Below are positions 1,049 to 27,284 of a DNA stretch of 64,000 nt, in pieces. How positions within the stretch are numbered: position 1 is the first letter of the stretch; each line of letters opens with the position of its first letter. Source of the stretch: Escherichia coli (GTDB lineage Bacteria > Pseudomonadota > Gammaproteobacteria > Enterobacterales > Enterobacteriaceae). Both the position numbers and the translations under genes were made by a program. Location of the stretch: assembly GCF_003018255.1 (NCBI RefSeq), contig NZ_CP027440.1. One strand, given 5' to 3'. Below the pieces are notes generated by a model. The model ran no database searches. It was not told the origin of the DNA and saw only the letters and a list, made by a program, of their open reading frames with translations.

Positions 1049-2443
1049 CTACTCCCTCCGTTCCGGCAATCTAAAGTTAATCTTTTCCACATTAACAATA
1101 TGGTGATTAATCCTGTCGATATCGACAGAGCTTTGTCCTTTTTCATTCACCGCATGAACATTTGCAAGAGACAGGAGTGTTTCTTTTTTCGCCATAAAGA
1201 CACCTCGTACGTCTTTGCGCATGTCGAAGTTCATGCTCAGTGCGGGTCCAACAGTGGATTCCTGCATCACATTGATATTTCGCATAAAAAGATGTTGCGG
1301 TTTATTGTGAAGCTCCAGCGACGCACGCTTCATCTCAATGTTAGTCAGCGCCACAAAGGAGACAGCATTCCCGGCAGAGATTTGGATGCCGCGCAATTTA
1401 TAAGCAAGGTAGGTGTTATCCAGTTGAATATTATTCACCCGGAAATTCTGCGGTATCGAGAGATATTTGCCTTTAATTACCCCATAACCGATTAACATCC
1501 CGGCGCTATTAATCATTTCAATATTATCAATCACGAAATTGTCACAACCGTAAATAGCGACTGTCGCGTTATCAATGCCTGCTTTCTTACTGAAATCCGG
1601 TGTGATATTGCGGGCCTTGATATTACGAATAACAAAATGTTTACCATTTTCAACATGGATCAGTTGCCGACAATCCGATCCCGTGATATTCGCCACGACA
1701 AAGTTTTTCACTGCCTGGTTTTCCGGATAATTATTATCGTAGGTACTTCCCGCAAGGCCTATGCCGATGCCCCAGTTGATTTTGCCGTTGGTACAGTTAA
1801 TGCGCTCAATGAGATGGTCGGATATCAAAATATCACTGTCGTTAATCGCCACGTTCCATTCAATAGCGTCGCCCTGTAAGTCGCTGAACTTACAGTTGGT
1901 GATGTTGGCACCGATTATCTGGTTATGAAATCCCTGGCGTAAGATGGCGTAATTAGCGTGGCTAACGTTCAGGTTATCGATGGTCAGGTTACGCATGACC
2001 CGTTTGTTTTTGCCGCCGATATAAATCTGCGTTACCGGGCCAAAGCCGCTCATCGCAAGCCCTTTGATGGTGCAGTCAGAGCCGCGCACATCCAGGGTGA
2101 TGTTATGCATACTGCCGCCCTCCTCCCCTGTCACCTGGCTGCCGTCCTGTAAGACAAATCGCCCTCTGCCATTGCCGCGCAAGCTTCCAAGGATGTGTAA
2201 CGTTTTGCCAGGAGGAATGAAGATGCCGGTGTTGATATTGTCACAAACGAATCCAGCAGGCACGACGATCGTTCGCCCTTCGCTGAAGGCTTGTTTAAAT
2301 GAGGCGATCCAGTCGTGTGGGTTGTAGTCGTTAATGTTAACGCTTTGTCGGGCGGGAAGTGCGCGAGCGAAAGGGGTATGGAGGAAGGCAAGCGCCGAGC
2401 TTGCCGTCAGGAAGGTGCGTCGGGAGAGTTTTTTAAATGGCAT
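1049..2443 (-). CDS. wcaM: colanic acid biosynthesis protein WcaM
   Basis: 464 aa ORF with Tat-like signal ([15 protein letters not shown]); last gene of cps cluster in expected position. Confidence 0.9.
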
Positions 2444-9911: not shown

Positions 9912-9999
9912 ATCGTTACCCTTTTTCAGGCAATAGTTGGCCCTGACCGAAGCGGCCAATTTTGTTTTTGTCGTTATTTACATCGCGGTTTCGCATTCA

Positions 10000-10103
<104 letters not shown>

Positions 10104-11540
10104 TTACACCCGTCCGTAGCGATCCGCGAAGCGCACCACATCATCCTCTTCGAGATAAGAGCCGGAGCGCACTTCAATTAAATCGAGCGGAATTTTCCCC
10201 GGGTTTTCCAGGCAATGCGTCGCCCCCAGCGGAATATAAATGGACTCGTTTTCACCAAGGAGTTTGATATCACCGTCGATAGTGACTTTTGCCGTTCCCG
10301 CGACCACTACCCAGTGTTCCGCGCGGTGATGGTGCATCTGTACTGACAAGCCTTCGCCCGGTTTCACGGTGATGCGTTTCACCTGGTAGCGGTCGCCCGC
10401 GTCGATAGAGTCATATTTGCCCCACGGACGATACACTTCGCGATGCACCCGATGCTCATGGCGACCATCGGCTTTGATCTGCTCGACCACTTTTTTCACA
10501 TCCTGCACCGCGTTACGGTCGGCAATCAGCACCGCATCTTTGGTCTGCACCACCACCAGATCTTTCACCCCGACGGTGGTGACCAGGCCAGATTCGGCAT
10601 ACACATAGCTGTTTTCAGTTTTGTGATTAATCACATCGCCGTGGCAAACGTTGCCCTCGGCGGTGTGGGCGCTGATCTCCCATAAAGAGGACCAGGAACC
10701 GACATCGCTCCAGCCCGCATCCATCGGCACCACAACAGCATCTGCCGTACGTTCCATGACTGCGTAATCCACCGACTCTTCCGGGCAGGCGAGAAACGCT
10801 TCTTCATCCACACGAATAAAATCGAGATCCGGATCGATGGCGCTCATCGCTTTTTCACAGGCGTCGAGAATATCCGGGCGATATTTTTTCAGTTCTTCGA
10901 GATAGCGTCCGGCGCGGAACAGAAACATACCGCTGTTCCAGTAATATTCGCCGCTTGCCACATAGGCCTGCGCGGTTTCCAGATTCGGTTTTTCGACAAA
11001 CTGCGCCACTTCAAAGGCCACCGTATCCTGCTCACCCGCAGACACTTCACCGCGACGAATATAGCCATATCCGGTTTCAGGTAGATCCGGCACAATGCCG
11101 AAGGTCACCAGCTTGCCCGCTTCGGCATACGGCATGGCATTACGCACGGCGGTGCGAAAAGCGTCTTCATCGGCAATCACATGATCCGCCGCCAGCACCA
11201 GCATTAATGGGTCGCTCTCCGGGCTATGACGTTTTGCCGCCAGCGCCGCCAGCGCAATGGCAGGTGCAGTGTTACGCCCTGCCGGTTCGAGAATAATATT
11301 CTCGGTGAGTTTGTTCAGTTGACGCAGCTGTTCCGCGACAATAAAGCGGTGCTGCTCATTGCAAATCACCACCGGGCTTTCGCACTCCACGCCGTTCAGG
11401 CGGCAGATGGTGGTTTGCAGCATGGTGAGATCGCCTTTCAGGCATAAAAACTGCTTGGGGTAAAGTACGCGGGAAAGCGGCCATAAGCGGCTACCGGAGC
11501 CACCTGCCATCACAACTGGATAGAGTTTCGACTGCGCCAT
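10104..11540 (-). CDS. cpsB: mannose-1-phosphate guanylyltransferase CpsB (ManC)
   Basis: 478 aa ORF ([24 protein letters not shown]...), nucleotidyltransferase plus C-terminal cupin. Confidence 0.9.
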
Positions 11541-11542
11541 AA

Positions 11543-12766
11543 TTATCCCCGAATATCATTTATAAATTGACGTAACACGTTCTCTTTATCGAGCGTGCGT
11601 TCGGCATATTCACGTGCCACCGTGTTGTGTTTGGGCAGCAGGAGCGCCTGACGAATCCCCGCCACCAGCGCCTCGACCGATTCCGGTTCCACGCAAACCG
11701 CAATGCCCGGAAAGGTTTCGCAAAGCTGTCCCAGTTCGGTGTGGGCTTCTGCGGTAATCACCGCGTTACCGCCTACCGCCAGAATATTGGTCAGTTTCGA
11801 CGGCAATACGGCATCTGCCGCGCCGCGTTTTTGCACCACCAGATGGCAATCGCCCATCTTCAGCAGTGCGGGTAAAGCGTCATACGATTGCAGCGGAAAA
11901 AATTGCATGTTGCGCAGTCCACGCTGCTGCGCCATTTTTTCCAGCCGCGCTTTGCCGCCGCCCTGCCCGACAATGGCAAAAATCAGCGGTTCATCGCGCA
12001 GGCGATCGGCAGCTTCAATAACGTTTTCCAGCCCCTGCTTTTCACCAATATTGCCGGAGTAAAGAATGATTTTTTTGTTATCCGGCAGGCCAAGCTGGTT
12101 ACGAAGGGCATCAACATCGGCATTTGCAACATGCTGAAAACGGGCGATTTCCGACCAGTTGGGGAAGAAGATGACGTTTTCCGCCGCCACGCCTTTTTCG
12201 ATAGCTTTATTCATCATCGAACGCGAAATCGTGGAGACGTTATCGACGTTATGCAGTCCGCTACGTTCGAACGCCGTTGCCAGCTGTGCCACTTTGCCGC
12301 CTTTACCTTTTCCGGCAAGGCCCAGCCCCAGCATGGCGTCCACTTCGTAATCCTGAATATGGAGCACCGTGCGCGCCCCAGAGAGTTTCGCCAGCAGGCG
12401 CATTCCCGGCGTGCAAAACAGCGTTGGCACCACGCCAATAATGCGATCCGGCTGCCAGCGACGTTGCGCCATCAACGGGAAAAAACTGCTGACGGCAAAA
12501 CTGCCGAGATGCAACAGGCGTTTCAGGGTGCTCGGCTGTTTTGGCACGTACAGCGGGCAGCGCCACACCGTGGCGGCCCCCTCTTCTCGTTTGTACCGCC
12601 AGGCGGAATAGTTCTCGCCCACCTGCCATTGCGGGTAGTAAGGCGGTGCGGTAATAACCCGCACCTCATGACCTTGCGCCGCAAGCCATTCCACCATCTC
12701 GCCGGTGTATTTGCCGATGCCGGTTAACTCCGGCGAGTAGTTAATGCCGTAGACCAGTATTTTCAT
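11543..12766 (-). CDS. wcaI: colanic acid glycosyltransferase WcaI
   Basis: 407 aa ORF, GT4 family. Confidence 0.9.
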
Positions 12767-13242
12767 AATCCGGGTACTCCGGCACGCTTCTCAGCGAGAA
12801 AATAGGCGCGGCTGTTAGCGTGAACATTGTCACTGGCGAGCAGTGCGTCCGGCGTCAGCCAGCGGTAATCGTCATGCTGCTCATCCGGCAGTAACAGCTC
12901 TTCTTCCACTACTCTGAAGCGAAAACCGAGCACCACATAGTGAGTGGTGAAATCCGTGCCGGAGAAGTTATCGTCATAAAAGTGCTGCCAGACACCGTAA
13001 AACTGGCCTGCTGTTATCGGCAGACGCAGCCCCAGTTCCGCCATCGTCAGCCGCTCAAATGCGGCTTCCAGCGTTTCGTCTTTCTGCACGCGCCCTCCCG
13101 GCACAAACCAGTAACCCTGCGCCGGGCGGTTGGTTCTTTTGCCAAGCAGAAACTCGCCGCGACTGTTCTCGACAATAAAGTCGAGAGAGACAAGCGGTGT
13201 GGAGCGCACTACCGTGGCAAAGTCTTCCTGACGTAAAAACAT
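12763..13242 (-). CDS. gmm: GDP-mannose mannosyl hydrolase (Nudix) Gmm/WcaH
   Basis: 159 aa from MFLRQEDF...; Nudix-type fold; 4-bp overlap with wcaI. Confidence 0.88.
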
Positions 13243-13244
13243 CA

Positions 13245-14210
13245 TTACCCCCGAAAGCGGTCTTGATTCTCAAGGAACCACTGGTAAGTGCTGGCAAGCC
13301 CCGCTTCCAGTGAGATTTCGTGATACCAGCCAAGCTGATGCAGGCGCGTCACATCCAGCAGTTTGCGCGGTGTACCATCCGGTTTACTGGCATCAAAAAC
13401 CACCCGACCTTTGTAACCCACCACTTTGGCGATGGTTTGCGCCAGCTCGCGGATAGTGCAGTCAACGCCCGTGCCGACGTTAATGTGCGACAGCATCGGC
13501 TGGGTGTTTTCCAGCCAGACTTCGTGCGCCAGCTCCATGACATGAATGCTCGCCGCCGCCATATCATCGACGTGCAGGAATTCACGCATCGGTGTACCGC
13601 TGCCCCATACCACCACGTCCGGCGCATTCTGTGCCGTCGCCTCGTGGAAGCGACGCAGCAATGCAGGTATCACATGGGAGTTACTCGGGTGGAAGTTGTC
13701 ATGCGGCCCGTACAGGTTGGTCGGCATGACTGAGCGGTAATCGCGTCCGTACTGGCGATTGTAAGATTCGCACAGTTTGATCCCGGCGATTTTGGCAATA
13801 GCATAAGGCTCGTTAGTCGGCTCCAGCGTGCCCTGCAACAACTCGCTTTCTGCCATCGGCTGTTTTGCCAGTTTCGGGTAGATGCAGGACGATCCGAGAA
13901 ACAGCAGTTTGTTCACGTCGTTCTGATGCGCGGCGTGAATGATGTTGCTCTCAATCATCATGTTCTGGTAGATGAAATCCGCCGGATACGTGTTGTTGGC
14001 AACAATGCCGCCCACTTTCGCCGCCGCCAGATAGACCTGGTCAATGCTTTCGCTGGCAAAGAAATCATGCACCGCGCGGCTGTCCAGCAGGTTCAGCTCG
14101 TCGCGGGTGCGTAATACCAGCTCTACATCACCGCGCTGTTCGAGCTGCCGCCTGATGGCGGAACCGACCATCCCGCGATGGCCAGCAATAAAAATGCGTT
14201 GTTTACTCAT
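13245..14210 (-). CDS. fcl: GDP-L-fucose synthase Fcl (WcaG)
   Basis: 321 aa ORF ([19 protein letters not shown]...), SDR epimerase/reductase. Confidence 0.92.
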
Positions 14211-14212
14211 GC

Positions 14213-15334
14213 TTATGACTCCAGCGCGATCGCCACGTCGTAGCCGTGAGATTTCAGCAGAGAGTGTTTTTTCGCCGCTTCGAGGTCATTAGCCACCATT
14301 TCAGACACCATCTCTCTGAGGGTGATTTCCGGTTTCCAGCCCAGTTTTTCGTGCGCTTTGGTCGGGTCGCCGAGCAGCGTTTCAACTTCCGCCGGACGGA
14401 AGTAACGCGGGTCAACGGCGATAATCACATCGCCCGGTTTAACGCCCGGCGCGTCATGCCCGGTGACGGAAACCACAATGCCCTTCTCTTCAACACCCGT
14501 GCCTTCAAAGCGCAGTTTGATGCCCAACTGTGCTGCCGCCATTTCCACGAACTGACGTACGGAGTACTGAACGCCGGTCGCGATAACGAAATCTTCCGGT
14601 TGTTCCTGTTGCAGCATCATCCACTGCATTTTTACGTAGTCTTTGGCGTGGCCCCAGTCACGCAGGGAATCCATATTGCCGAGATACAGGCACGACTCCA
14701 GCCCCTGGGCGATGTTGGCGATTGCGCGGGTGATTTTGCGGGTAACGAAAGTCTCGCCACGGCGCGGGGATTCATGGTTGAAGAGAATACCGTTACAGGC
14801 GTACATGTCGTAGGATTCGCGGTAGTTAACGGTGATCCAGTAGGCGTACAGTTTGGCGACCGCATACGGAGAGCGTGGGTAGAACGGCGTGGTCTCTTTC
14901 TGCGGAATTTCCTGCACCAGACCGTACAGTTCAGAAGTAGAAGCCTGATAGAAACGGGTTTTCTTTTCCAGACCGAGGAAGCGGATCGCCTCCAGCAGGC
15001 GCAGCGTACCCATCGCATCGACGTCTGCGGTATATTCCGGTGACTCAAAAGAAACCGCAACGTGGCTCATTGCGCCCAGGTTGTACACTTCATCCGGCTG
15101 CACTTCACGCAAAATACGCGTCAGGTTGGAGGTATCACTCAGGTCGCCATAATGCAGATGGAATTTCGGGTTGCAGGTGTGCGGATCCTGATAAATGTGA
15201 TCCACGCGCTCGGTGTTGAATGACGATGCACGACGCTTAATACCATGCACCTCGTAACCTTTTTCCAGCAGAAACTCTGCCAGGTAAGAACCGTCTTGTC
15301 CGGTTACACCGGTGATGAGAGCGACTTTTGACAT
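14213..15334 (-). CDS. gmd: GDP-mannose 4,6-dehydratase Gmd
   Basis: 373 aa ORF ([23 protein letters not shown]...). Confidence 0.93.
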
Positions 15335-15360
15335 GTCTTATTCCTCTGTATTTTTTGAAT

Positions 15361-15909
15361 TTATTCAGTTTCAACGCGTTCGCGTATCACCACTGCGGGA
15401 TTCCCCCGGCAAACCACATTTGCCGGAAGCGATTTAAAAACACTGCTTCGTGCACCCACGACGGTGCCGTTGCCGATCGTGACGCCTGGGGCAACAAAGA
15501 CATCGGTTGCCAGCCAGCATTTCTCGCCAATCACAATAGGCGTGGCGTTAATGGTGAAATGTTGACTTGCATGGTCGTGGCTACCGGTGCATAAATAACT
15601 TTTTTGCGATATCACCGAATGTGCGCCAATGGTTATTTCACCGAGGGTATATAAATTGACGTCATCGCCGACCCACGCGTAATCACCTAAGGTTAATTTC
15701 CACGGATAGGTAATTTTTACTGACGGACGAATAACTACGTTTTTTCCTATTTTTGCGCCGAATAAACGTAATAAAAATGCCCGCCAGCGATACAATACTT
15801 GTGGCGACCAGGCAAATATTGTTGCCTGTACTGCCCACCACAATTGCACTTTAATAGCGTTGCCACCCCGGAACCCTTTCGGTACCGAGAAACCGCTTAA
15901 ATCTTGCAT
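15361..15909 (-). CDS. wcaF: colanic acid acetyltransferase WcaF
   Basis: 182 aa ORF with hexapeptide-repeat acyltransferase character. Confidence 0.88.
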   Translation of the reverse strand: MQDLSGFSVPKGFRGGNAIKVQLWWAVQATIFAWSPQVLYRWRAFLLRLFGAKIGKNVVIRPSVKITYPWKLTLGDYAWVGDDVNLYTLGEITIGAHSVISQKSYLCTGSHDHASQHFTINATPIVIGEKCWLATDVFVAPGVTIGNGTVVGARSSVFKSLPANVVCRGNPAVVIRERVETE

Positions 15910-15924
15910 CGTTTTCCCTTATAT

Positions 15925-16671
15925 TCAGCTTTTGTTATATAAGGCTTTCGTCTTTGAGGTAGTACGTTGGCGTAAATGCCAGGATAATTCTGCCCAGAAG
16001 CCAGGCACATGTAATATTTGCCGTTGGACTTTTTTGGCGTCAGCACACAATTCCATATTATTGGTGGTTGATACCCCACCCATAGAAAATTCAGACACCA
16101 GGCCATTGAGTTTTTTAAATGCATAACCGGCTTTATACATTTTGGCTACCAGCGCGTAGTCGGAAGAAACTTTATATTCCAGGTCATAACGCCATTTTTT
16201 CAAGCCGGACACCGGGAAAAATATCGCCTGATGACTGGCGGGCAGGCTGTGATAAATATACCAACCCGGTTTGGCGCTACGTTTAATTTTATGCCCGTCG
16301 CCAAAATCCAGCAGCGCATCGCCGGTGATCATCATGTTATCTTTTTGCACTTTTAACTTACGGACAAAATTTGCGGCATCCTGATGAAAAATATCGCCTG
16401 AGTTGAGAAACAACGCGAACTTGCCATGCGCCATCGCAATGCCTTTGTTCATGGCGTCGTAGATACCGTTATCTGGCTCGCTGACAAAGCGTAGGTTATA
16501 GATACCATTGAGATTTTCCAGATACTCACGGGTGCCGTCATTGGAACCGCCATCGACAACAATCCATTCGAAGCTGATATCGTCAGCCTGCGCCAGATGC
16601 GCCAACGAGGCATGTGTTTTGACTATCCCTGCGAGGTTACGAAACGCGACAGTGATTATGCTAAGCAACAT
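15925..16671 (-). CDS. wcaE: colanic acid glycosyltransferase WcaE
   Basis: 248 aa ORF, GT2 family (DGGSNDGT...). Confidence 0.88.
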
Positions 16672-16681
16672 GTTCTTATTC

Positions 16682-17899
16682 TTACCTCGTAATATTTAAC
16701 GCTTTTCGCAAAATAAACGGACAGACGATTAAAAATGCATATTCCGGGCTAAATATCGAACCGGTAAAAAACAGCGATACCGGAGTAAAAAGATATAATT
16801 GCACGCGAAAATTGCGGTTATCACCAAAAGCGTTGATCATCATTTTTATCACTTTCCCCATGTACCACAGCGATAAAAACACTGCGAACCAGGAAAAATA
16901 AATAATCAGCAGATACAAACCATTGTCTATGGTTTTTCCGACATCCGCACCGTTAAATATTCCGAATGATGCGACATATTCATAAAGTGAGCCAAATCTG
17001 ACTACACCGTCAATATGGGTCAAAGAATAACCGACCATCACCAGCGGACCGACAATACGATAATACGATGACGATCCTTCCGTACCTAAATCGCCCAGAC
17101 GGGTGGAAATATAAGGAAACGCGATTACCACACCAACCAGGAATACAGCCAGAGAAATCAATGCTAACGGTAACTTTTTCTTAATCGCCTCTTTATTCAG
17201 ATATTGAAATGCCCACTCCAGCAAATAAAACAGGATAAAGGTCATAACCCCTGAAAACGATCCGGATAATATTATCCCTGCAAGAATCATAGCATCGGTT
17301 TTAGGCGTTTTGATACCAAACTGTTTGATGCTGAGCCAAATTGAGATTAATGCCAGAGCGAAAAATGCCGGTTCGAAATAAAGTGCTGTCGTGCGCTTGC
17401 CGCCGAATTTAATGAAATTCAGCACATAGCTGTTGCTGTAAATCAGATATTTCGAAATCGACTCCATAATACTGCTACCGCCGGTGAGGATAATTTGCGC
17501 CATCTCCACCGCCGCCAGCACCACCACCAACCCGACCACCAGATAAAAGAAACGTAATATCTTGCGGTGGTTGTGTGGCGAAATTGTTTTAAAGCGAATA
17601 CTCCACACCATGCCAATAATGATCACAATATAGACAAACAGCATGGTTGAAGTGACATATTTACTGGCATCCAGCGACTGACCAAACAGGTAGTTAAACG
17701 CCGTGAGCCCCGCGCCAATCCCCAAGGCAATCATCAATTTTTTAACGCTGATTCGCTCTAAAAACAGCAGTAACAAGACAGGTAAAAAAGTGACGATGGT
17801 GATGGGGAAACTTTCGCCAAGCTGGGCGATTTTGACATTAACCAGCAGGTAGATCAGCGGCAGCAGCAGGTAGCTACAGATTCTGATAGAAGTTGACAT
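16682..17899 (-). CDS. wcaD: colanic acid polymerase WcaD
   Basis: Polytopic membrane ORF; track ORF is 429 aa, start placed at internal [12 protein letters not shown] giving 405 aa; overlaps wcaC 3' end. Confidence 0.8.
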
Positions 17900-19091
17900 A
17901 CTCCTCCAGCATCTGTTGTCCACTGTAGGCGGCGCGGCTGCGCTGGCTGAACTCAGCCAGCGTGGTACCAAATATCGCTTGTGCGATTTCCGGTTTGCTT
18001 AACTGCACCAGTTGCAGCACATCTTCTTCGCTGACGGTTTTACCACCGGATTTTTGCAGCACTTCACGCGCCGCATCGCTATGGGTGGCAATCACCGGCA
18101 CGCCAATCGATAACGCCTCACACAAAATCAGCGGGTAGTTATCGACGCGAGAACTGAACACCAGCGCATCCATCTGGTTGAGCGCGCTCATCAGTTTACG
18201 TTTGTCAGTTTCAAAGCCGTGATTAACAACGTTACCAGCGGTGAACGGCGAGAACTTACCGAAAGTATGCAGTTCGATTTTGTCGCCCAGCGCCATCATC
18301 TCGCGTACCAGTTGCTGGTTAGTTTTGCCGTCGTAACGCAGGTCATGCGCCACCACCGCGATTTTCGGCTTGCCCTGGGTTTCGCGCACCGGAGGCAAGT
18401 CCGCCAGAATCGCTTCGGTTGCCATATCAATACCGTTATTGATAATCCGGCAACGCCCTGGACCGTACAGACTATTGAAAGCGTCTGCCACATGCTGGCT
18501 GGGGGAAATAAACTGACAGCCCAGCGCCAGCATCTCGCTGAATAACTGCCGTTTGCCCGCCACCAGTTGGTGTGCGCGATCAATCTTCACCGGCGGATAA
18601 TTATTTAAGGTCGGGCATTTCTGGCAGCCCGTTTTCCAGCCTTCGCAACCGTCGGTAAAGGCGCAGCGTCCGGTAACGCTCCAGTGATCGTGTAACGTCC
18701 AGACCAGAGTGACATCCGGTTTATGGTTTTTCACTTTTTCGCAAAAGCGCACCACGCTCTTAAGATTCAACCAGTAGCTGTGCAGCACATGAAAATGCAG
18801 GACCACCGGACCCGGTGTGCGAGTAATGGTGCGATATAACTCATTGAAATTGCCGAACAGATCGCGATTAAGCAGACGAAACAACGCAATGTTCGCCATC
18901 GCGGTCATCCGCGGCGTATGTTTGATGACCTGCGGATAGTTTTGATGGCTGACGCTCTCTTTGCCGCCTTTGCCGTAGCCGTAGACAAAATGTGACGCCA
19001 GCCCCTGTTGCAGCGCGCGCTGGTGGAGATCTAACGCCACACCTGCCGCCCCGCCTTCCGCCAGTCGCACATTGAATTGCAGAATATTCAT
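17874..19091 (-). CDS. wcaC: colanic acid glycosyltransferase WcaC
   Basis: 405 aa ORF, GT4 family. Confidence 0.88.
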   Translation of the reverse strand: MNILQFNVRLAEGGAAGVALDLHQRALQQGLASHFVYGYGKGGKESVSHQNYPQVIKHTPRMTAMANIALFRLLNRDLFGNFNELYRTITRTPGPVVLHFHVLHSYWLNLKSVVRFCEKVKNHKPDVTLVWTLHDHWSVTGRCAFTDGCEGWKTGCQKCPTLNNYPPVKIDRAHQLVAGKRQLFSEMLALGCQFISPSQHVADAFNSLYGPGRCRIINNGIDMATEAILADLPPVRETQGKPKIAVVAHDLRYDGKTNQQLVREMMALGDKIELHTFGKFSPFTAGNVVNHGFETDKRKLMSALNQMDALVFSSRVDNYPLILCEALSIGVPVIATHSDAAREVLQKSGGKTVSEEDVLQLVQLSKPEIAQAIFGTTLAEFSQRSRAAYSGQQMLEEYVNFYQNL

Positions 19092-19576
19092 TTAATTACC
19101 TTCACTCGCGCTTTTTCTCCCACCACCAGCGCGTTGTCCGGGACAGAGTCGAGCACCACGCTGCCCGCGCCCACGGTGACGTTGTTACCAAGCGTGATAT
19201 CACCAAGAATAATGACGTTGGCACCGAGTTCGACGCCGTTGCCAATGTGTGGACATGCCATGTTATCGGCACCACGATTGCCGATAGTGACGCCGTGGCG
19301 AATGGTGAAATCATCCCCCGCTACCACGTTTTTATTGATCACTACGGCGTAACCGTGATGGATAGTGAAACGGCGGCCAATGGTCGCGGCGGCCTGGATT
19401 TCATAACCGAAAAAGCATTCGGTGATAATGCGATACAGCACCAGCAGCGGGGCCGCCCAAAGATTGTTGAGGACGTTCTTTTTGCGCCACACCGAACAAA
19501 AATGAGCGGCGCGATAGGCAAGAACCATGCAGCACGGGCGTAAACTCCAGCTGTTGGCGCGCAGATCTTCCAGCAT
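19088..19576 (-). CDS. wcaB: colanic acid acetyltransferase WcaB
   Basis: 162 aa ORF, serine-acetyltransferase-like hexapeptide repeats. Confidence 0.88.
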   Translation of the reverse strand: MLEDLRANSWSLRPCCMVLAYRAAHFCSVWRKKNVLNNLWAAPLLVLYRIITECFFGYEIQAAATIGRRFTIHHGYAVVINKNVVAGDDFTIRHGVTIGNRGADNMACPHIGNGVELGANVIILGDITLGNNVTVGAGSVVLDSVPDNALVVGEKARVKVIK

Positions 19577-19578
19577 CT

Positions 19579-20418
19579 TTAGCGCCCCCGAATACCATCA
19601 GCCAGACGTTTGCCGTTACGCACCGACAGCAGCGTCAACAAGGTGCGCCAGGTCATGCGTTTATTGCGGATCTGGTAGAGGGTAAACAGCTGATATTTTT
19701 TGCTGGCGCGGTCAAATTTGTCTTTGTGCTTACGGTAAAAGTGGAAGTATCCGGAGAATTTTTTCGGTGACGAGGTGATCTGCATTTCGCCGTGATTGAT
19801 ATGCAGGATCTGCGTCGCCTCTTCCACTTTCCACGGTTCGCCGTACTCCACCACCATCCGCAGGAAGATGTCGTAATCCTGTGCCGCTTTCAGTTCGGTA
19901 TCGAACAAGCACTCTTTGAAACGCCACGCCCAGGTAAAGACCTGATTGCCAATGATATTGCGTTTGTAGAACAGGCGGCGTGAATACGGCGATTTGGGAT
20001 ACAGCGGCAAGCTTGCCGGTTGGGAATAGACTTCGCCCTGGCAAACGTAGTCGTTAGCGTACAAAAAGGCGTGAGTGACCAGTTGCTGTTTATGGGCGAG
20101 GAAGACGCTCAGGCGGTTGGGTGTCCATTCATCATCATCATCGATCCCGGTGATGTATTCCCCTTGCGCCAGCATAATCGCCTGGTTACGTACCGCGCAC
20201 GCCCCGCTGTTAATGTCGTTGTGAATGTAAGTGATACGCGGATCGTTGAGGGCGGTGACGTACTGTTGTAGTTGTTCCCAGGAGGTGGAGCAATCATCCA
20301 CGATGATCATCTCCCAGTTACTGTAGTCCTGGCGCAGGACCGATTTTATCGCCCGAATCGCCAGTTGTTGACGGTTCCAGGTCGGCATATAGATTGAAAT
20401 CAGCGGATTGTCTTTCAT
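19579..20418 (-). CDS. wcaA: colanic acid glycosyltransferase WcaA
   Basis: 279 aa ORF, GT2 (IYMPTWNRQQLAIRAIKSVLRQ...DDCS). Confidence 0.88.
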   Translation of the reverse strand: MKDNPLISIYMPTWNRQQLAIRAIKSVLRQDYSNWEMIIVDDCSTSWEQLQQYVTALNDPRITYIHNDINSGACAVRNQAIMLAQGEYITGIDDDDEWTPNRLSVFLAHKQQLVTHAFLYANDYVCQGEVYSQPASLPLYPKSPYSRRLFYKRNIIGNQVFTWAWRFKECLFDTELKAAQDYDIFLRMVVEYGEPWKVEEATQILHINHGEMQITSSPKKFSGYFHFYRKHKDKFDRASKKYQLFTLYQIRNKRMTWRTLLTLLSVRNGKRLADGIRGR

Positions 20419-20480
20419 AGGTTGTTCTCCCGGAGTGTCGAGATGTTCTGCCGGTTTATAAGCTGGTTTACAGGTTCTGT

Positions 20481-20585
<105 letters not shown>

Positions 20586-20595
20586 GCGGATTTCG

Positions 20596-22758
20596 TTATT
20601 TCGCGTCCGACTTATATTCGTATTCGTAATAGCCATAATCCTGATACGCGCTGGCGCGACGGAAGATGGAGTTCAGAATCACCCCTTTCACCGGAATACC
20701 GTTTTGCTCAAAGCGGCTCAGACTGGTTTCCACTTCTTTCAATGTGTTGACCGCATAACGCGCCACCATCAACGTGGTTCCGACATGACGACCAACAATT
20801 GCCGCATCGGTCACTGCCAGAATCGGCGGCGTGTCAATTAACACCAGGTCGTAGTTTTTACTCGCCCACTTCACCAGTTCGGCAAAGCGTTCGCTCATTA
20901 ACAGTTCTGAAGGATTTGGCGGCACCTGACCGCGCGGGATCAGGTCAAATTTGGCAATAGAGGTCGGTTTAGCAGCGGTAGTAATATCGCCCTGACCAAT
21001 CAGAATTTCCGACAGGCCATTAACGTTATTAGTGCCCAACAGCTCGTGGGTGTAGCCTTTGCGCATATCGCAGTCGATCAACAACACCCGTTTATTGGTC
21101 TGACTGATCACCGCCGCCAGGTTAGCGCAGACAAAGGTTTTACCGATTGACGGGCTAACCCCGGTCATCATCAACACATTGTTCTGCGCCTGCATCATCG
21201 CGAAGTGCAGACTGGTACGCAGACTGCGGATGGCTTCAATCGCCAGATCGGTTGGATTCCCCACCGCCAGTAGCTGGCTCTGTTTATAGCGTTTAACCCC
21301 TTTGATGGTTTTGACGCTATCGCGCGCTTTCTGCCATTCCGACAGCGGGATGCTGGCATAGACGCTAATACCGTGTTCTTCCAGCACCTGTGGGCTTTCG
21401 ATGCCGCGATTGAACAACGAGCGCAGCAGCACACCCACGATAGAGAGCATCAGGCCGAGGATAATTGCACCGAGGATAATCAACCCTTTCTTCGGTTTCA
21501 GCACACCAGGCTGAGTGATTGCCGGGTCAACAATGCGCACATCGCCGACGGTGCTGGCTTCGGTGATTTTCAGCTCCTGCTCTTTATTCAGCAGTTGCAT
21601 ATAGACCTGCTGACCAGACTCGACATCGCGGGTCAGGCGCACAATCTCCTGCTGGGTTTTCGGCATCGCCGTTACGCGACCATTAAGTTTGGCTTTTTCG
21701 TCTTCCAGCGCCTGCCGTTTCTCCAGCAGCGTGCGGTACGCCGGGTGAACTTTGGTGTACAGCTTGGAGATTTCCGCCTCTTTAAAGGTCAGTTCGTTCA
21801 ACTGCGCGTCGATGTTCACCATCGAATCGAGCACCGCTTTCGCTTCCAGCGGCAGATCAACTGAATCTTTATCCTGACGGAAGGCATTCAGTTTGTTTTC
21901 GGCAACATCGAGGCGGCTACGTACTTCCGGTAACTGTTGCGCGAGGAAAGCGAGGCTTTTCGACGCTTCCGCGGATTTGCGCTCAATATTTTGTTCCTGA
22001 TAGTTACGGGCGATACTGTTAAGAATGTCGCGGATCTGTTCGCGGTCTTCACCGGTATAAGTCAGGCTCAGTACGCCTGCGTCTTTGCCGTTCTCCATTA
22101 CCGTCAGGCTGTTTTGCAGTTGGTTGATCATCCCCAGCGTGGAGTATTTGGTGACGGTAAACTCACTGCCCGGGCTGGCGTGAATGGCTTCCACCATCAG
22201 TGTGACGCCTTCTTTTTTCAGCATCTGGCCCGCTTGCCCACGGGCGCTAAAGCCGCCATCACTGCTCAGGGTGTAGTTTTTGTCATCAAGCACATTAAGC
22301 GTAAACACCTGATCCGCCATCTCTTTCGGGCGGTTAAAGGTGGTCACTTTCACCGTCTCGTTCTGGCGACCCATCAAACGATCCCAGCCCGCACCGAAAA
22401 TCGGGAACGTGTTTTTGCTCACCGCAATATCGAGGTCGAGATCGTCCACCGTTTTACCAAGCACCAGGCGAGAACGAATCAACTGGATCTCGGCGTCCGA
22501 TGCTGGCGGTTTGTTGGCTAATGCCGATCCGATATCCTGCACTAACGAATTGCCGCTGCTTTGTTCGATTTGTACCAGTGCGTCGGCGCTGTATATCGGC
22601 GTGGCGAAGAAGGTGTAAACCACGGCACAGAGGGCGAATACGGCGGTGATGCCAATTACCCACCAGCGCGCTTCAATGACGGTGCCGACCAGGCGACCAA
22701 TATCGATTTCATCACTGCCCGTTACCGGAGCGGCATGTTGTTTTACTTTTTCTGTCAT
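20596..22758 (-). CDS. wzc: tyrosine autokinase / capsule co-polymerase Wzc
   Basis: ORF 20596-22794; start placed at MTEKVKQHAAPV giving 720 aa; Walker A (GVSPSIGKT) and C-terminal Tyr-rich tail (YQDYGYYEYEYKSDAK). Confidence 0.9.
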   Translation of the reverse strand: MTEKVKQHAAPVTGSDEIDIGRLVGTVIEARWWVIGITAVFALCAVVYTFFATPIYSADALVQIEQSSGNSLVQDIGSALANKPPASDAEIQLIRSRLVLGKTVDDLDLDIAVSKNTFPIFGAGWDRLMGRQNETVKVTTFNRPKEMADQVFTLNVLDDKNYTLSSDGGFSARGQAGQMLKKEGVTLMVEAIHASPGSEFTVTKYSTLGMINQLQNSLTVMENGKDAGVLSLTYTGEDREQIRDILNSIARNYQEQNIERKSAEASKSLAFLAQQLPEVRSRLDVAENKLNAFRQDKDSVDLPLEAKAVLDSMVNIDAQLNELTFKEAEISKLYTKVHPAYRTLLEKRQALEDEKAKLNGRVTAMPKTQQEIVRLTRDVESGQQVYMQLLNKEQELKITEASTVGDVRIVDPAITQPGVLKPKKGLIILGAIILGLMLSIVGVLLRSLFNRGIESPQVLEEHGISVYASIPLSEWQKARDSVKTIKGVKRYKQSQLLAVGNPTDLAIEAIRSLRTSLHFAMMQAQNNVLMMTGVSPSIGKTFVCANLAAVISQTNKRVLLIDCDMRKGYTHELLGTNNVNGLSEILIGQGDITTAAKPTSIAKFDLIPRGQVPPNPSELLMSERFAELVKWASKNYDLVLIDTPPILAVTDAAIVGRHVGTTLMVARYAVNTLKEVETSLSRFEQNGIPVKGVILNSIFRRASAYQDYGYYEYEYKSDAK

Positions 22759-23209: not shown

Positions 23210-24349
23210 TTACCAGTTATGAATGTCGCTGGCTGTATCCGTCATGTAACGGACACCGCTAATAGTTGGCAGCAACTGATTGATCAGACGGTTCCAGCGG
23301 GAAACCGGGGCGGTGGTGACATACACCACGTCATAAGGTTGCAGGCGGAATTCTGTCGCCATCACCAGCAACGTGGCATCGGACATATCCAGCTGGTAGA
23401 TATTGGCAATCTTGCCGTTACGCCCGCCCTCGCCTTTCAGCGGACGAATGACAAAGATGCCGCTGGCGTTGGAGGTGGTCATGTCGATGCCTTCAGCATT
23501 GCCCAGGGCTTCAGTCAGGGTCATGCCGCTAAAGTCCATTTTCAGGGTGCTCTGTTTCTTCACTTCACCCATCACAAACACTTTCAGATCATCATTACGC
23601 GGCACGTAGAGAATATCGCCGGGGTAAAGCAGTCGGTTCTGATTGAGGTCGCCGTTTTGCATCAGCGCCTGCAAAGAAATGCGTTCTTCACGACCATTGT
23701 GTGTTAGCACTACGTTGCGCCAGTCAGCGGTGTCGGTCAGGCCACCTGCGGCGTTGATGGCATCAAGAATGGTCAGTGGCACGTTGGTGATCGCCTGTTG
23801 ACCGGATTTATTCACCTGGCCGGAGATATAGGCTTTTTGCGAGCGGAAGGCGGCGATATTAACGTCCACCTGCGGGTCAGCGATGTACGTCGCTAAGCGA
23901 CCGGTAATATCACTGCGGATTTCAGCGAGCGTTTTCCCCACGACGTGAACCTTGCCGATATACGGGTAGAACATAGTGCCGTCAGGCTGTACCCAGTTGC
24001 CGGTGTCGCTGGAGCTGCGGTACTGACCGGCTGGCGTGGTGAGTTCCGGGTGATCCCAGACGGTGACATTAAGAACGTCCCCCGGCCCGACGCGATACTG
24101 ATAATTCGCGATCTCACTTTCCAGCGTCATATTGGGGCGCGCTACATTCGGGCGTGGGCGTAATTGGTCAATCAGGCGCGGGGTCAACGGATAAACATTC
24201 ACCATTTTGTCGAGATCGAAATCAGCGTCCTGCTGTTTGATGACGTCTTTACCCATCGTCGACATATTGCTGCCCGGAAGTACTGTGCAACCGCTTATCA
24301 AGGTTACTGACACCAATAATGGCATCAATTTCATTTTGGATTTCATCAT
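23210..24349 (-). CDS. wza: outer-membrane polysaccharide export lipoprotein Wza
   Basis: 379 aa ORF, lipoprotein signal with lipobox (LISGC). Confidence 0.92.
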
Positions 24350-24527
24350 TGTTTATTTATCACTTTGGCAGAGTAATTATCCTGTGCACTATTAATAGCA
24401 ATGTCGCCATGCACATTTACCTTGCAGTTAATTGAATAAAAATTTAACTGGCATCAGTCCTAAAAAAATTGATTTCATCCGCAGGCTATTGACAGAATAA
24501 TTCAGACTGGTCTTTCAGGCATCCAGA

Positions 24528-24539
24528 CACGCTACCGCC
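24528..24539 (-). promoter_or_regulatory. ops element (GGCGGTAGCGTG) within the JUMPstart sequence of the cps leader; RfaH-dependent antitermination site
   Basis: Plus strand reads cacgctaccgcc, the reverse complement of the ops consensus, about 180 nt upstream of wza start in the long leader. Confidence 0.8.
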
Positions 24540-24787
24540 CCTGGCTTTTTAGCTACCAATACACTGATTTAGCTTAATTTTTAAAACCCTCTCAACATAC
24601 AGTCGTTGATGAGAAAGGGTTATTGCGGAAATTAACTTCCGAATATAAGGTGACATTATGGTAATTGAATATTGGCTCTCCAATAATGCAGGAGGAAGTG
24701 TTACAGCTAACGGAATAGCAGGCAAGGTAACAATTCGGCAATTGGCTATTTTTAAGAATTATATTAAGTGTCATTCAATATGGTTTT

Positions 24788-24801
24788 TAGGAGTTTCTTT
24801 A
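24788..24801 (-). promoter_or_regulatory. candidate RcsAB box upstream of the cps promoter
   Basis: Minus-strand sequence TAAAGAAACTCCTA resembles the RcsAB consensus TaAGaatatTCctA; placement relative to the transcription start not verified. Confidence 0.4.
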
Positions 24802-25007
24802 GGTTGACAATATTTAATATAGTGTCTCCACATGCGATATTTCTTAAATAATGTTTTATTATTACCACTTTTAATTCAGGGATAATGTGAGGTTATAAAC
24901 CTCAAATAATATGAGATAAATAGTGCTGCAACATTGCATTTTTGCCCCGATTTATCCATGATCGAATTGTGACATTTGTCATACAACGAATAGGTTTTGT
25001 ACTTACT

Positions 25008-26665: not shown

Positions 26666-27004
26666 ATGAGAAAAAAGCTGGCTTTTCTTGATACCAGTCT
26701 TGACGATTTACGCGCATTTCCAGAATCGTCTCGACAGGAAATTGGCTATCAACTCGACAGGATCCAACAAGGGTTAAACCCATACGACTGGAAACCTTTT
26801 TCAACTATCGGCCCTGGTGTGCGAGAGATTCGTACTCGCGATGCTGATGGGATCTATCGCGTCATGTATGTCGCAAAATTTGAAGAAGCGGTTTACGTAT
26901 TGCATTGTTTTCAAAAGAAAACACAGACTACCAGTCAATCGAATATTGATTTAGCCAAACGACGCTATAAAGAACTTGTTCAGGAGCGGAAAAATGAAAA
27001 TTGA
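26666..27004 (+). CDS. putative type II toxin, RelE/ParE superfamily (phage Gp49/HigB-like)
   Basis: 112 aa ORF with SD (ggag) and an upstream perfect TATAAT at 26646-26651; small basic protein; overlaps the downstream HTH gene by 11 bp; family assignment from recalled sequence similarity only. Confidence 0.6.
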   Translation: MRKKLAFLDTSLDDLRAFPESSRQEIGYQLDRIQQGLNPYDWKPFSTIGPGVREIRTRDADGIYRVMYVAKFEEAVYVLHCFQKKTQTTSQSNIDLAKRRYKELVQERKNEN

Positions 27005-27284
27005 AACCTTTGATAGTGTGTGGGATGCGGTGAGTGACACCCCTGAACAAGCGGAAAATATGCGGATCCGTGCCGAACTTGTTACGATCATTAATAACTG
27101 GATTGAACAACAAGGGTTTAGCCAGGCTCAGGCAGCGTCTGCTTTAGGGGTCACTCAACCTCGCATATCTGAACTTGCCAGAGGTAAGATCCAGATCTTT
27201 AGTATCGATAAATTGATCACCATGATGGCTCATGCAGGATTGCATATTCAACGTATTGAAGTTCAATATCCACATGCTGCTTAG
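26994..27284 (+). CDS. putative antitoxin, HTH XRE-family DNA-binding protein (HigA-like)
   Basis: 96 aa from ATG 26994 (MKIETFDSVWDAV...), preceded by AGGAG; HTH-like segment FSQAQAASALGVTQPRISELARGK; alternative in-frame start at 26976. Confidence 0.6.
   Translation: MKIETFDSVWDAVSDTPEQAENMRIRAELVTIINNWIEQQGFSQAQAASALGVTQPRISELARGKIQIFSIDKLITMMAHAGLHIQRIEVQYPHAA

What the first reader, a model, noticed from the sequence alone, without database searches (positions are those of the whole stretch)
15361..17971. Compositional mosaicism inside the capsule cluster (AT-rich wcaD/wcaE/wcaF versus GC-rich gmd/fcl)
By eye the wcaD-wcaE-wcaF segment is much more AT-rich than the adjacent gmd-fcl-gmm-wcaI segment. 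This suggests different evolutionary origins of the polymerase and transferase genes versus the GDP-fucose pathway genes within one operon.
Basis: seen in the sequence. Interest (0 to 1): 0.2.

Follow-up and report, generated by a model that had tools for sequence, protein, structure and literature searches.

The report
AT-rich wcaD-wcaE-wcaF block, colanic acid operon
The colanic-acid capsule operon of E. coli does contain a roughly 2.3 kb AT-rich block (wcaD, wcaE, wcaF), but it is an old, already documented feature shared by every related genus examined, not a sign of recent gene transfer.

Summary
The window holds the E. coli colanic-acid (wca) operon on the minus strand. wcaF, wcaE and wcaD have GC 0.48/0.46/0.43 and GC3 0.46-0.52. 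The other wca genes have GC 0.52-0.56 and GC3 0.60-0.71, except wcaM (0.47/0.56). The best-fit low-GC segment is 15591-17814 (GC 0.435 vs 0.543), far beyond block-shuffle expectation.

About 40% of the deficit is amino-acid composition and about 60% is codon choice. The contrast is wcaDEF (and, more weakly, wcaM) against all other wca genes, not just against the GDP-fucose genes.

The same dip occurs in 65 of 65 complete loci from 23 other named genera. Its upstream edge sits at the wcaC/wcaD junction. The block has co-diverged with its flanks. Its synonymous sites are at compositional equilibrium (W->S 317 vs S->W 313), so it is not converging on the flanks. Any separate origin therefore predates the family's radiation, and composition alone cannot show it.

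Published tables already list these GC values, and wcaD is used in the literature as an H-NS-silenced AT-rich gene. Interest is low.

One side observation: two internal wcaD segments show significant synonymous-site conservation.

The parts
15361..15909 (-). wcaF, colanic acid acetyltransferase (182 aa); GC 0.479, GC3 0.464. Its 3' ~230 nt (15361-15590) already have flank-like GC.
   Evidence: TIGR04008 equivalog, 400 bits
15925..16671 (-). wcaE, colanic acid GT2 glycosyltransferase (248 aa); GC 0.459, GC3 0.514
   Evidence: TIGR04009 equivalog
16682..17899 (-). wcaD, Wzy-type colanic acid polymerase (405 aa); GC 0.426, GC1 0.43, GC3 0.51; lowest Fop in the operon (0.45)
   Evidence: TIGR04010 equivalog, 872 bits, profile positions 1-404
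15591..17814 (.). Maximum-likelihood low-GC segment (GC 0.435 vs 0.543 outside)
   Evidence: log-likelihood ratio 43.8; null maximum 15.8
17874..17899 (-). 26-nt wcaC/wcaD overlap. It marks the upstream edge of the low-GC block and is the strongest synonymous constraint in the operon (z 7.1).
   Evidence: edge at median -3 bp from the wcaD start in 68 loci
17248..17327 (-). Fragment carrying the published H-NS-repressed intragenic wcaD promoter (Warman et al. 2020); both primers match exactly
17309..17359 (-). wcaD codons ~180-196. Synonymous sites are nearly invariant in 24 genus-level representatives (z 5.43). The block lies just upstream of, and overlaps the 5' end of, the published promoter fragment.
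16895..16984 (-). wcaD codons ~305-334. Second synonymous-constraint block (z 5.89). Contains conserved rare codons (GGA, TCA, ATA) and a promoter-like TAGACA-16-GATTAT at 16929..16902.
13245..15334 (-). gmd and fcl (GDP-fucose pathway), the GC-rich downstream flank (GC 0.54-0.56, GC3 0.64-0.69)
17874..20418 (-). wcaC, wcaB, wcaA, the GC-rich upstream flank (GC 0.52-0.55, GC3 0.63-0.68)
1049..2443 (-). wcaM, a second and milder low-GC gene of the same operon (GC 0.473, GC3 0.559, Fop 0.51)

Best explanation
The block is wcaF-wcaE-wcaD: the acetyltransferase, a GT2 glycosyltransferase and the Wzy-type polymerase of the colanic-acid operon. Its low GC is an ancestral and stably maintained property of these three genes throughout the Enterobacteriaceae. 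It is not a trace of recent transfer into E. coli.

Two components add up. The first is protein composition, mainly in WcaD, a polytopic membrane protein with 36.5% of its residues in the amino acids with AT-rich codons (F, Y, M, I, N, K). The second is a lower equilibrium GC at synonymous sites, with more T/A-ending and non-optimal codons.

Since the genera diverged, AT-to-GC synonymous changes have been fixed about 30% less often per site in these genes than in their neighbours. GC-to-AT changes are fixed at the same rate in both. The offset therefore persists instead of decaying.

Shown here: the dip, its conservation, its co-divergence with the flanks, and its stationarity.

Inferred: the force is weaker selection (or weaker biased gene conversion) for GC-ending codons in genes with low codon adaptation. 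Also inferred: the cluster was put together in the usual modular way before the family radiated.

From the literature: in E. coli this AT-rich stretch lies in an H-NS-bound, RfaH/ops-dependent operon and carries an H-NS-repressed intragenic promoter.
For: Dip and significance:
-.

Split of the GC deficit (0.096 in total):
- 0.039 comes from amino-acid composition and 0.057 from codon choice.
- Fop is 0.45-0.51 in wcaDEF against 0.55-0.73 in the other wca genes apart from wcaM (0.51).

Conservation across genera:
- 65 of 65 complete loci from 23 other named genera show GC3(wcaDEF) below GC3(flanks), mean -0.152, range -0.098 to -0.225.
- wcaDEF GC3 tracks flank GC3 with r = 0.85.
- In 68 of 68 loci the best segment is low-GC. 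Its start is at median -3 bp from the wcaD start.

Co-divergence with the flanks:
- Amino-acid distance matrices: wcaDEF vs wcaABC r = 0.878, wcaDEF vs gmd-wcaI r = 0.875, flank vs flank r = 0.913.
- Fourfold sites: 0.73 and 0.78, against 0.72 for flank vs flank.

Stationarity, from 16 sister pairs with outgroups:
- With close outgroups, wcaDEF shows W->S 317 vs S->W 313 (p = 0.9). Implied equilibrium GC is 0.48, against 0.478 now.
- Per-site W->S rate is 0.065 against 0.094 in the flanks (p = 4e-9). S->W is 0.070 against 0.067 (not significant).
- The lower W->S rate holds in both fourfold and twofold codon classes.

Literature:
- The same per-gene GC values are tabulated in PMC5359238.
- wcaD appears as an H-NS-repressed AT-rich gene in PMC7229825.
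- wza-wcaM is described as H-NS-bound and RfaH-targeted in PMC9765446.
Against: - Polarisation used parsimony on triplets, which is biased in GC-skewed sequence. This mostly affects the flanks, not the roughly 50% GC wcaDEF sites.
- Fourfold sites between genera are about 70% decayed, not fully saturated. Some ancestral memory could remain.
- The force that lowers W->S fixation is not identified. Weaker codon selection alone would also predict a higher S->W rate, and that is not seen.
- All the genes sit in one operon, so a difference in expression level cannot be assumed.
- H-NS occupancy of exactly this segment was not seen in any data I could read.
Confidence: 0.65

Rival explanations
1. 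Ancient chimeric assembly that is still ameliorating slowly. wcaDEF came from a low-GC donor when the cluster was built, and the dip is an unfinished relic decaying towards the host composition.
For: - Low GC in wzy and glycosyltransferase genes is the general pattern in polysaccharide loci and is conventionally read as transfer (PMC3715488).
- A WcaD-family gene lies in an obvious low-GC island in Hydrogenophaga, and a low-GC colanic-like locus exists in Klebsiella.
- Fourfold sites are not fully saturated between genera: excess identity is about 0.28-0.32.
Against: - There is no net W->S gain in wcaDEF: 317 vs 313 with close outgroups, and 587 vs 706 with all outgroups.
- The per-site W->S rate is lower than in the flanks, not equal to it. 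At the flank rate about 461 W->S changes would be expected, and 317 were seen.
- The dip size is similar in all 65 loci despite about 0.8-0.9 substitutions per fourfold site between genera.
Confidence: 0.17
2. The AT-rich block is kept by selection as a regulatory device. Possible roles are an H-NS nucleation or elongation barrier that makes the operon depend on RcsAB and RfaH, conserved internal promoters feeding wcaE-wcaF-gmd-fcl, or slow-translation patches that limit polymerase dosage.
For: - The dip is stationary and family-wide.
- Two internal wcaD blocks have significant synonymous constraint (z 5.4 and 5.9; family-wise 5% threshold 4.40; null maximum 4.82). Each sits next to promoter-like hexamers, and one adjoins a promoter shown active in vitro and H-NS-repressed.
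- An hns deletion raises wcaD, wcaE and wcaF several-hundred-fold at 25 C (PMC7582179).
- The wza-wcaM operon is H-NS-bound and an RfaH target.
Against: - The hns effect may be indirect, through rcsA (my own knowledge), and the whole operon responds, not just wcaDEF.
- The H-NS high-affinity motif is not enriched in the block.
- Promoter-like sites are not enriched in 11000-22000: 9 found against 11.0 expected.
- Mean synonymous conservation of wcaDEF equals that of other wca genes (0.53-0.56 against 0.53-0.63), so constraint is local, not block-wide.
Confidence: 0.15
3. Recent horizontal insertion or replacement of wcaDEF within the Escherichia lineage.
For: Only the atypical composition and the label 'horizontally acquired' applied to wcaD in H-NS studies.
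Against: - The segment is present at 95-99% identity in 4788 of 5426 complete E. coli genomes.
- Orthologues with 82-94% amino-acid identity and the same dip are found in 23 other genera.
- Distances are congruent with those of the flanks.
- The genes abut or overlap with gaps of 10, 15 and 26 nt and a 26-nt overlap. That leaves no room for mobile-element scars.
Confidence: 0.01
4. A pure by-product of protein composition (membrane protein, AT-rich codons), with no synonymous component.
For: WcaD GC1 is 0.43 against about 0.60 in the flanks, and 36.5% of its residues are F, Y, M, I, N or K. In the low-GC Klebsiella homologous locus GC3 is flat, yet the WcaD-like gene still has nearly the lowest GC.
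Against: - The codon-choice part is 0.057 of the 0.096 deficit.
- For WcaF the amino-acid part is negative, at -0.015.
- The dip persists at fourfold sites.
- The flippase WzxC, also a polytopic membrane protein, has GC3 0.71.
Confidence: 0.02

Closest known systems
Colanic acid (wca/cps, M-antigen) gene cluster of E. coli K-12 and Salmonella (Stevenson et al. 1996 and 2000). The title of the 2000 paper was seen in a reference list. The content of both papers is recalled from memory and was not readable here.
   Same: Same 20 genes in the same order, from wza to wcaM, with JUMPstart upstream and a position between gne/galF and yegH-asmA. The same per-gene GC values (wcaD 42.4, wcaE 45.9, wcaF 47.5 against 51-56%) are tabulated for other E. 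coli strains in PMC5359238.
   Different: Nothing material. This is a strain variant, 95-99% identical to most E. coli.
Compositional mosaics of O-antigen and group 1 capsule (K) loci
   Same: Repeat-unit-specific genes (wzy, glycosyltransferases, acetyltransferases) are lower in GC than the nucleotide-sugar pathway genes in the same locus. Reeves et al. say this pattern 'needs explanation' (PMC3715488).
   Different: - The dip is shallow (43-48% against 28-37% in O-antigen loci).
- The flippase wzxC is not low-GC.
- The genes are not polymorphic between strains but conserved across a whole family.
- Synonymous sites are at equilibrium.
H-NS-silenced AT-rich 'xenogeneic' genes with spurious intragenic promoters (Singh 2014, Lamberte 2017, Warman 2020)
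   Same: wcaD is one of the six test genes in Warman 2020. The promoter fragment maps to 17327..17248.
   Different: wcaD is not a recent acquisition. The sequence just upstream of that promoter is under synonymous constraint across genera, which fits poorly with a purely happenstance origin.
Klebsiella pneumoniae K locus with a colanic-like gene set (L082)
   Same: Same order, wcaC-wcaD-wcaE-wcaF-gmd-fcl-gmm-wcaI-wcaJ, plus wza-wzb-wzc and a WcaM-like gene. Amino-acid identity is 40-88%.
   Different: The whole locus has GC 0.36 with flat GC3 (0.20-0.29). It has a different wzx and extra transferases, and it lies in the Klebsiella cps position with wzi and gnd.

Membership tests
Colanic acid biosynthesis operon (wza-wcaM) | Full complement and order of the 20 genes, wza, wzb, wzc, wcaA-F, gmd, fcl, gmm, wcaI, manC/cpsB, manB/cpsG, wcaJ, wzxC, wcaK-M | tested here: met
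   ORF map matches the RefSeq annotation of a 99.4% identical genome gene for gene.
Colanic acid biosynthesis operon (wza-wcaM) | WcaD, WcaE, WcaF, WcaM, Gmd and Fcl score above the curated equivalog cut-offs | tested here: met
   TIGR04010 872 bits (cut-off 590), TIGR04009 508 (369), TIGR04008 400 (326), WcaM 1017 (808), gmd 586 (415), Fcl 551 (500).
Colanic acid biosynthesis operon (wza-wcaM) | JUMPstart/ops leader upstream of wza | tested here: met
   Rfam RF01707 at 24528-24566 on the minus strand, 57.3 bits against a gathering score of 35.
Recently acquired genomic island | Atypical base composition relative to the host | tested here: inconclusive
   wcaD GC 0.426 is below all 19 other large genes of the window (minimum 0.472). 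However, GC3 of wcaDEF (0.46-0.51) lies inside the range of those genes (0.449-0.693).
Recently acquired genomic island | Patchy distribution among close relatives | tested here: not met
   Found in 4788 of 5426 complete E. coli genomes and in 80 loci from 23 other named genera.
Recently acquired genomic island | Phylogeny incongruent with the flanking genes | tested here: not met
   Distance-matrix correlations of wcaDEF with each flank (0.875 and 0.878) are close to flank vs flank (0.913). No full tree-topology test was run.
Recently acquired genomic island | Mobility genes, tRNA or direct repeats at the borders | tested here: not met
   Borders are a 26-nt gene overlap (wcaC/wcaD) and a 26-nt gap (wcaF-gmd). 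There are no extra ORFs.
Recently acquired genomic island | Ongoing amelioration (net AT-to-GC substitution) | tested here: not met
   W->S 317 vs S->W 313. Equilibrium GC 0.48 equals the current value.
H-NS-bound AT-rich region | AT content well above the surroundings over more than 1 kb | tested here: met
H-NS-bound AT-rich region | H-NS occupancy in vivo over this segment | not testable with these tools
   Literature only. wcaD is listed among H-NS-repressed intragenic promoters, and the wza-wcaM operon is described as 'bound proximally by H-NS'.
H-NS-bound AT-rich region | Enrichment of the high-affinity motif TCGATAAATT | tested here: not met
   Only 3 two-mismatch matches fall in or at the edge of 15361-17899, out of 84 in the whole window.

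The most novel reading that the evidence does not exclude
The AT-rich wcaDEF block is not a fossil but a selectively maintained control element of the colanic-acid operon. On this reading its low GC, and the two synonymously constrained sites inside wcaD, serve one or more of three roles across the Enterobacteriaceae: conserved internal promoters, H-NS/RfaH checkpoints, or programmed slow translation of the polymerase. The 'spurious' H-NS-repressed wcaD promoter would then be a conserved functional site.
Probability: 0.15. Interest if true: 0.4.

Novelty: already known. Interest (0 to 1): 0.15.

Why it matters
For genome annotation it hardly matters. This is the standard colanic-acid operon with its usual composition.

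The modest general point is methodological. A sharp GC step inside an operon is routinely read as evidence of foreign origin. Here the step is more than 20 genera old, co-inherited with its flanks, and compositionally stationary. It reflects a gene-specific equilibrium, not unfinished amelioration.

This bears on the open remark that wzy-type genes are typically the lowest-GC genes of polysaccharide loci (PMC3715488). It also bears on the habit of calling H-NS-bound AT-rich genes such as wcaD 'horizontally acquired'.

Tried and rejected
- **Primary papers.** I tried to read Stevenson et al. 1996 (PubMed id and PMC178271), Stevenson et al. 2000 (DOI), Rahn et al. 1999 (PMC93651) and Lamberte et al. 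2017 (PMC7610989). None is held. What I say about their content is from memory only.
- **Literature searches.** Searches on GC content or amelioration of the colanic cluster gave nothing beyond the papers cited.
- **Promoter and terminator consensus scan, 11000-22000.** No excess over shuffles: 9 promoter-like sites against 11.0 expected, and 15 terminator-like sites against 13.3.
- **H-NS high-affinity motif.** Not concentrated in the block.
- **Rfam scan of 1-30000.** No RNA family in wcaDEF.
- **RNA folding of the two synonymously constrained wcaD blocks.** z = 0.14 and 0.12, so there is no unusual structure. The wcaC/wcaD junction gave z = -1.48.
- **Overlapping ORFs as a cause of the synonymous constraint.** Only chance ORFs of 20-38 aa are present.
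- **Pure amino-acid-composition explanation.** Rejected.
- **Recent-transfer explanation.** Rejected.
- **Distant WcaD homologues.** Among 1.84 billion representatives there are 226 hits at E <= 0.001. Apart from Klebsiella and one Hydrogenophaga, the 10 clusters I looked up are unnamed metagenome proteins. No donor lineage could be named.
Full report
**What the window holds**

Bases 1049-24349 carry the E. coli colanic-acid operon on the minus strand. The gene order is wza, wzb, wzc, wcaA, wcaB, wcaC, wcaD, wcaE, wcaF, gmd, fcl, gmm, wcaI, manC (cpsB), manB (cpsG), wcaJ, wzxC, wcaK, wcaL, wcaM.

- The ORF map matches the RefSeq annotation of a 99.4% identical E. coli chromosome gene for gene.
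- WcaD, WcaE, WcaF, WcaM, Gmd and Fcl all score above NCBIfam equivalog cut-offs.
- A JUMPstart element lies upstream of wza.
- The finding's coordinates are wcaF (15361-15909), wcaE (15925-16671) and wcaD. Its end, 17971, is a TTG-extended ORF. The annotated wcaD start is the ATG at 17899, which overlaps wcaC by 26 nt.

**Check of the observation**

The GC profile drops to 0.41-0.47 between about 15250 and 17750, against 0.53-0.58 on both sides.

| Genes | GC | GC3 |
|---|---|---|
| wcaF / wcaE / wcaD | 0.479 / 0.459 / 0.426 | 0.464 / 0.514 / 0.510 |
| 16 other wca genes | 0.52-0.56 | 0.60-0.71 |
| wcaM | 0.473 | 0.559 |

- A two-change-point fit puts the low segment at 15591-17814 (GC 0.435 vs 0.543). 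The log-likelihood ratio is 43.8, against a maximum of 15.8 in 200 block shuffles.
- The dip survives at fourfold-degenerate sites: 0.59-0.67 against 0.69-0.81 in every other wca gene except wzb (0.66) and wcaM (0.64).
- It also shows in a codon-adaptation proxy. Fop is 0.45-0.51 in wcaDEF and 0.51 in wcaM, against 0.55-0.73 in the remaining wca genes. The optimal-codon list is from my own knowledge.
- T-ending twofold codons and rare codons are more frequent in wcaDEF.

For scale, 19 other large genes in the window average GC 0.533 and GC3 0.594, with a GC3 range of 0.449-0.693. wcaD is the lowest in total GC, but the GC3 of the three genes is only at the low end of normal. This is far from the 28-37% GC of O-antigen genes.

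**What makes up the deficit**

I recoded each protein with the codon usage of the other 16 wca genes. The pooled deficit of 0.096 splits into 0.039 from amino-acid composition and 0.057 from codon choice.

- WcaD is rich in the amino acids with AT-rich codons (36.5% F, Y, M, I, N, K) and has GC1 of 0.43.
- For WcaF the amino-acid term is slightly negative, so its deficit is entirely synonymous.
- Being a membrane protein is not sufficient to explain the dip. The flippase WzxC has GC3 of 0.71.

**Age and history**

WcaD is unusually conserved for a Wzy polymerase, at 82-94% identity across genera. A scan of one genome per species returned 80 loci. In the 65 loci that contain wcaA through wcaI, which come from 23 named genera besides Escherichia:

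- GC3 of wcaDEF is lower than that of the seven flanking genes in every case. The mean difference is -0.152, with a range of -0.098 to -0.225.
- In 60 of 65 loci every one of the three genes is below every flank gene.
- wcaDEF GC3 follows flank GC3 across species (r = 0.85, slope 0.65).
- In 68 of 68 loci the best-fit segment between wcaA and wcaI is low-GC. It starts at a median of -3 bp from the wcaD start.

Pairwise distances of wcaDEF correlate with those of wcaABC and of gmd-fcl-gmm-wcaI about as well as the two flanks correlate with each other:

| Comparison | Amino-acid r | Fourfold-site r |
|---|---|---|
| wcaDEF vs wcaABC | 0.878 | 0.73 |
| wcaDEF vs gmd-wcaI | 0.875 | 0.78 |
| Flank vs flank | 0.913 | 0.72 |

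The block has therefore travelled with its neighbours since the common ancestor of these genera.

A Klebsiella pneumoniae K locus keeps the same order, wcaC-D-E-F-gmd-fcl-gmm-wcaI-wcaJ, at 40-88% protein identity. It is uniformly low in GC (0.36, with GC3 flat at 0.20-0.29). This suggests that the linkage is older still.

**Relic or maintained?**

Fourfold sites between genera are heavily but not completely turned over. Identity is 0.48 in wcaDEF against 0.28 expected by chance, and 0.55 against 0.34 in the flanks. Conservation of the dip alone therefore does not decide the question.

I polarised synonymous changes in 16 sister pairs, each with its nearest outgroup. With close outgroups:

| Region | W->S | S->W | Equilibrium GC | Current GC | W->S rate per site | S->W rate per site |
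|---|---|---|---|---|---|---|
| wcaDEF | 317 | 313 | 0.48 | 0.478 | 0.065 | 0.070 |
| Flanks | 738 | 1024 | 0.58 | 0.66 | 0.094 | 0.067 |

- The per-site W->S rate is lower in wcaDEF (p = 4e-9). The S->W rates do not differ.
- The lower W->S rate holds in both fourfold and twofold classes and in each of the three genes.
- If wcaDEF were relaxing under the same process as its flanks, about 461 W->S changes would be expected, not 317.
- The block is therefore not ameliorating. It sits at its own lower equilibrium.
- Caveat: parsimony polarisation is biased in GC-skewed data. This affects the flank estimate much more than the roughly 50% GC wcaDEF sites.

**What is already known**

- The same per-gene GC values (wcaD 42.4, wcaE 45.9, wcaF 47.5 against 51-56%) are tabulated for other E. 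coli strains (PMC5359238).
- To my recollection, Stevenson et al. 1996 and 2000 discussed the composition of this cluster. I could not read either paper. The title of the 2000 paper appears in a reference list.
- wcaD is one of the H-NS-repressed AT-rich genes used to study intragenic promoters (PMC7229825). The published fragment maps exactly to 17327..17248 on the minus strand.
- The wza-wcaM operon is described as H-NS-bound and an RfaH/ops target (PMC9765446).
- An hns deletion raises wcaD, E, F and their neighbours several-hundred-fold at 25 C (PMC7582179). That effect may be indirect.
- Reeves and colleagues note that wzx and wzy genes often have the lowest GC in polysaccharide loci and that this 'needs explanation' (PMC3715488).

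**Side observation**

I scanned 14 wca genes in 24 genus-level representatives for synonymous-site conservation. The null came from permutation within amino-acid classes (family-wise 5% threshold z = 4.40; null maximum 4.82). Signals above the threshold:

- The wcaC/wcaD overlap: z = 7.1.
- wcaD codons about 180-196 (window about 17359..17309): z = 5.43.
- wcaD codons about 305-334 (about 16984..16895): z = 5.89.
- The fcl start (z = 4.64) and wcaI codons 385-390 (z = 4.76), both weaker.

The first internal block abuts the published promoter fragment. The second includes conserved rare codons and a promoter-like TAGACA-16-GATTAT. Neither block shows unusual RNA folding or a plausible overlapping ORF. 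Their function is untested.

**Verdict**

It describes a known, family-wide property of the colanic-acid operon.

The evidence shows co-inheritance and a stationary, gene-specific composition. Any chimeric assembly would have happened before the Enterobacteriaceae radiated.

What lowers the W->S fixation rate in these three genes remains inferred. The candidates are weaker codon selection or biased gene conversion, or positive selection for AT-richness tied to H-NS, RfaH or translation control.

Interest is low. The only mildly new points are the stationarity result and the two synonymously constrained sites inside wcaD.

Noticed in passing
window 17309-17359 and 16895-16984 (minus strand, inside wcaD): Two internal wcaD segments have near-invariant synonymous sites across 24 genus-level representatives (z 5.43 and 5.89; family-wise 5% threshold 4.40). 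The first adjoins the published H-NS-repressed intragenic promoter fragment. The second holds conserved rare codons and a TAGACA-16-GATTAT promoter-like site. There is no unusual RNA fold and no overlapping ORF.
   Followed up: partly
window 1049-2443 (wcaM): wcaM is a second, milder low-GC gene of the operon (GC 0.473, GC3 0.559, Fop 0.51, 34.9% F/Y/M/I/N/K residues). The fetched loci do not reach it, so its conservation was not checked.
   Followed up: partly
window 5071-5526 (between wcaK and wzxC): Five tandem copies of the Rfam naRNA4 (CssrE, REP-type) element at a spacing of about 96 bp, on the plus strand (69-82 bits).
   Followed up: no
window 9916-9965 (minus strand, upstream of manB/cpsG): Rfam 'algC RNA' motif (77 bits, gathering score 33.8) in the manC-manB intergenic region.
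   Followed up: no
window 24250-25000: The wza leader and promoter region is the most AT-rich stretch of the first 30 kb of the window (GC 0.35-0.39). It contains the JUMPstart element at 24528-24566.
   Followed up: no
window 26666-27284: A RelE/ParE-family toxin gene and an HTH antitoxin-like gene lie between yegH and asmA, in a local GC dip (0.42-0.46). Both are annotated in the near-identical genome. They look like a small inserted module.
   Followed up: no
L082 (Klebsiella pneumoniae GCA_922826265.1, cps locus): A K locus with GC 0.36 carries a colanic-like gene set in colanic order: WcaC-, D-, E-, F-like, gmd, fcl, gmm, WcaI-, J-, M-like, at 40-88% amino-acid identity. GC3 is flat at 0.20-0.29, so there is no wcaDEF dip at synonymous sites.
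   Followed up: partly
L084 3530-18783 (Hydrogenophaga sp. NFH-34): A WcaD-family gene sits in a five-gene low-GC island (GC 0.38-0.41: a cytidylyltransferase-family (CTP_transf_like) gene, wzx, CDP-alcohol phosphatidyltransferase, WcaD-like, GT2) inside a polysaccharide cluster whose other genes are mostly at GC 0.64-0.70. This is a clear compositional mosaic in a different class of bacteria.
   Followed up: no
L023 (record titled Chryseobacterium sp. 18061): This record carries an Enterobacteriaceae-type wca cluster (WcaD 91% identical). At synonymous sites it is very close to Citrobacter sp. 18056 (L019), with a fourfold distance of 0.16. The organism label is probably wrong, or the assembly is contaminated.
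   Followed up: no
(E. coli genome search with window 15000-18500): 615 of 5426 complete E. coli genomes have no match to wcaF-wcaC, and 75 records match at only 60-80% identity. These are possibly strains in which the colanic locus is lost or replaced, for example by a group 1 capsule locus.
   Followed up: no
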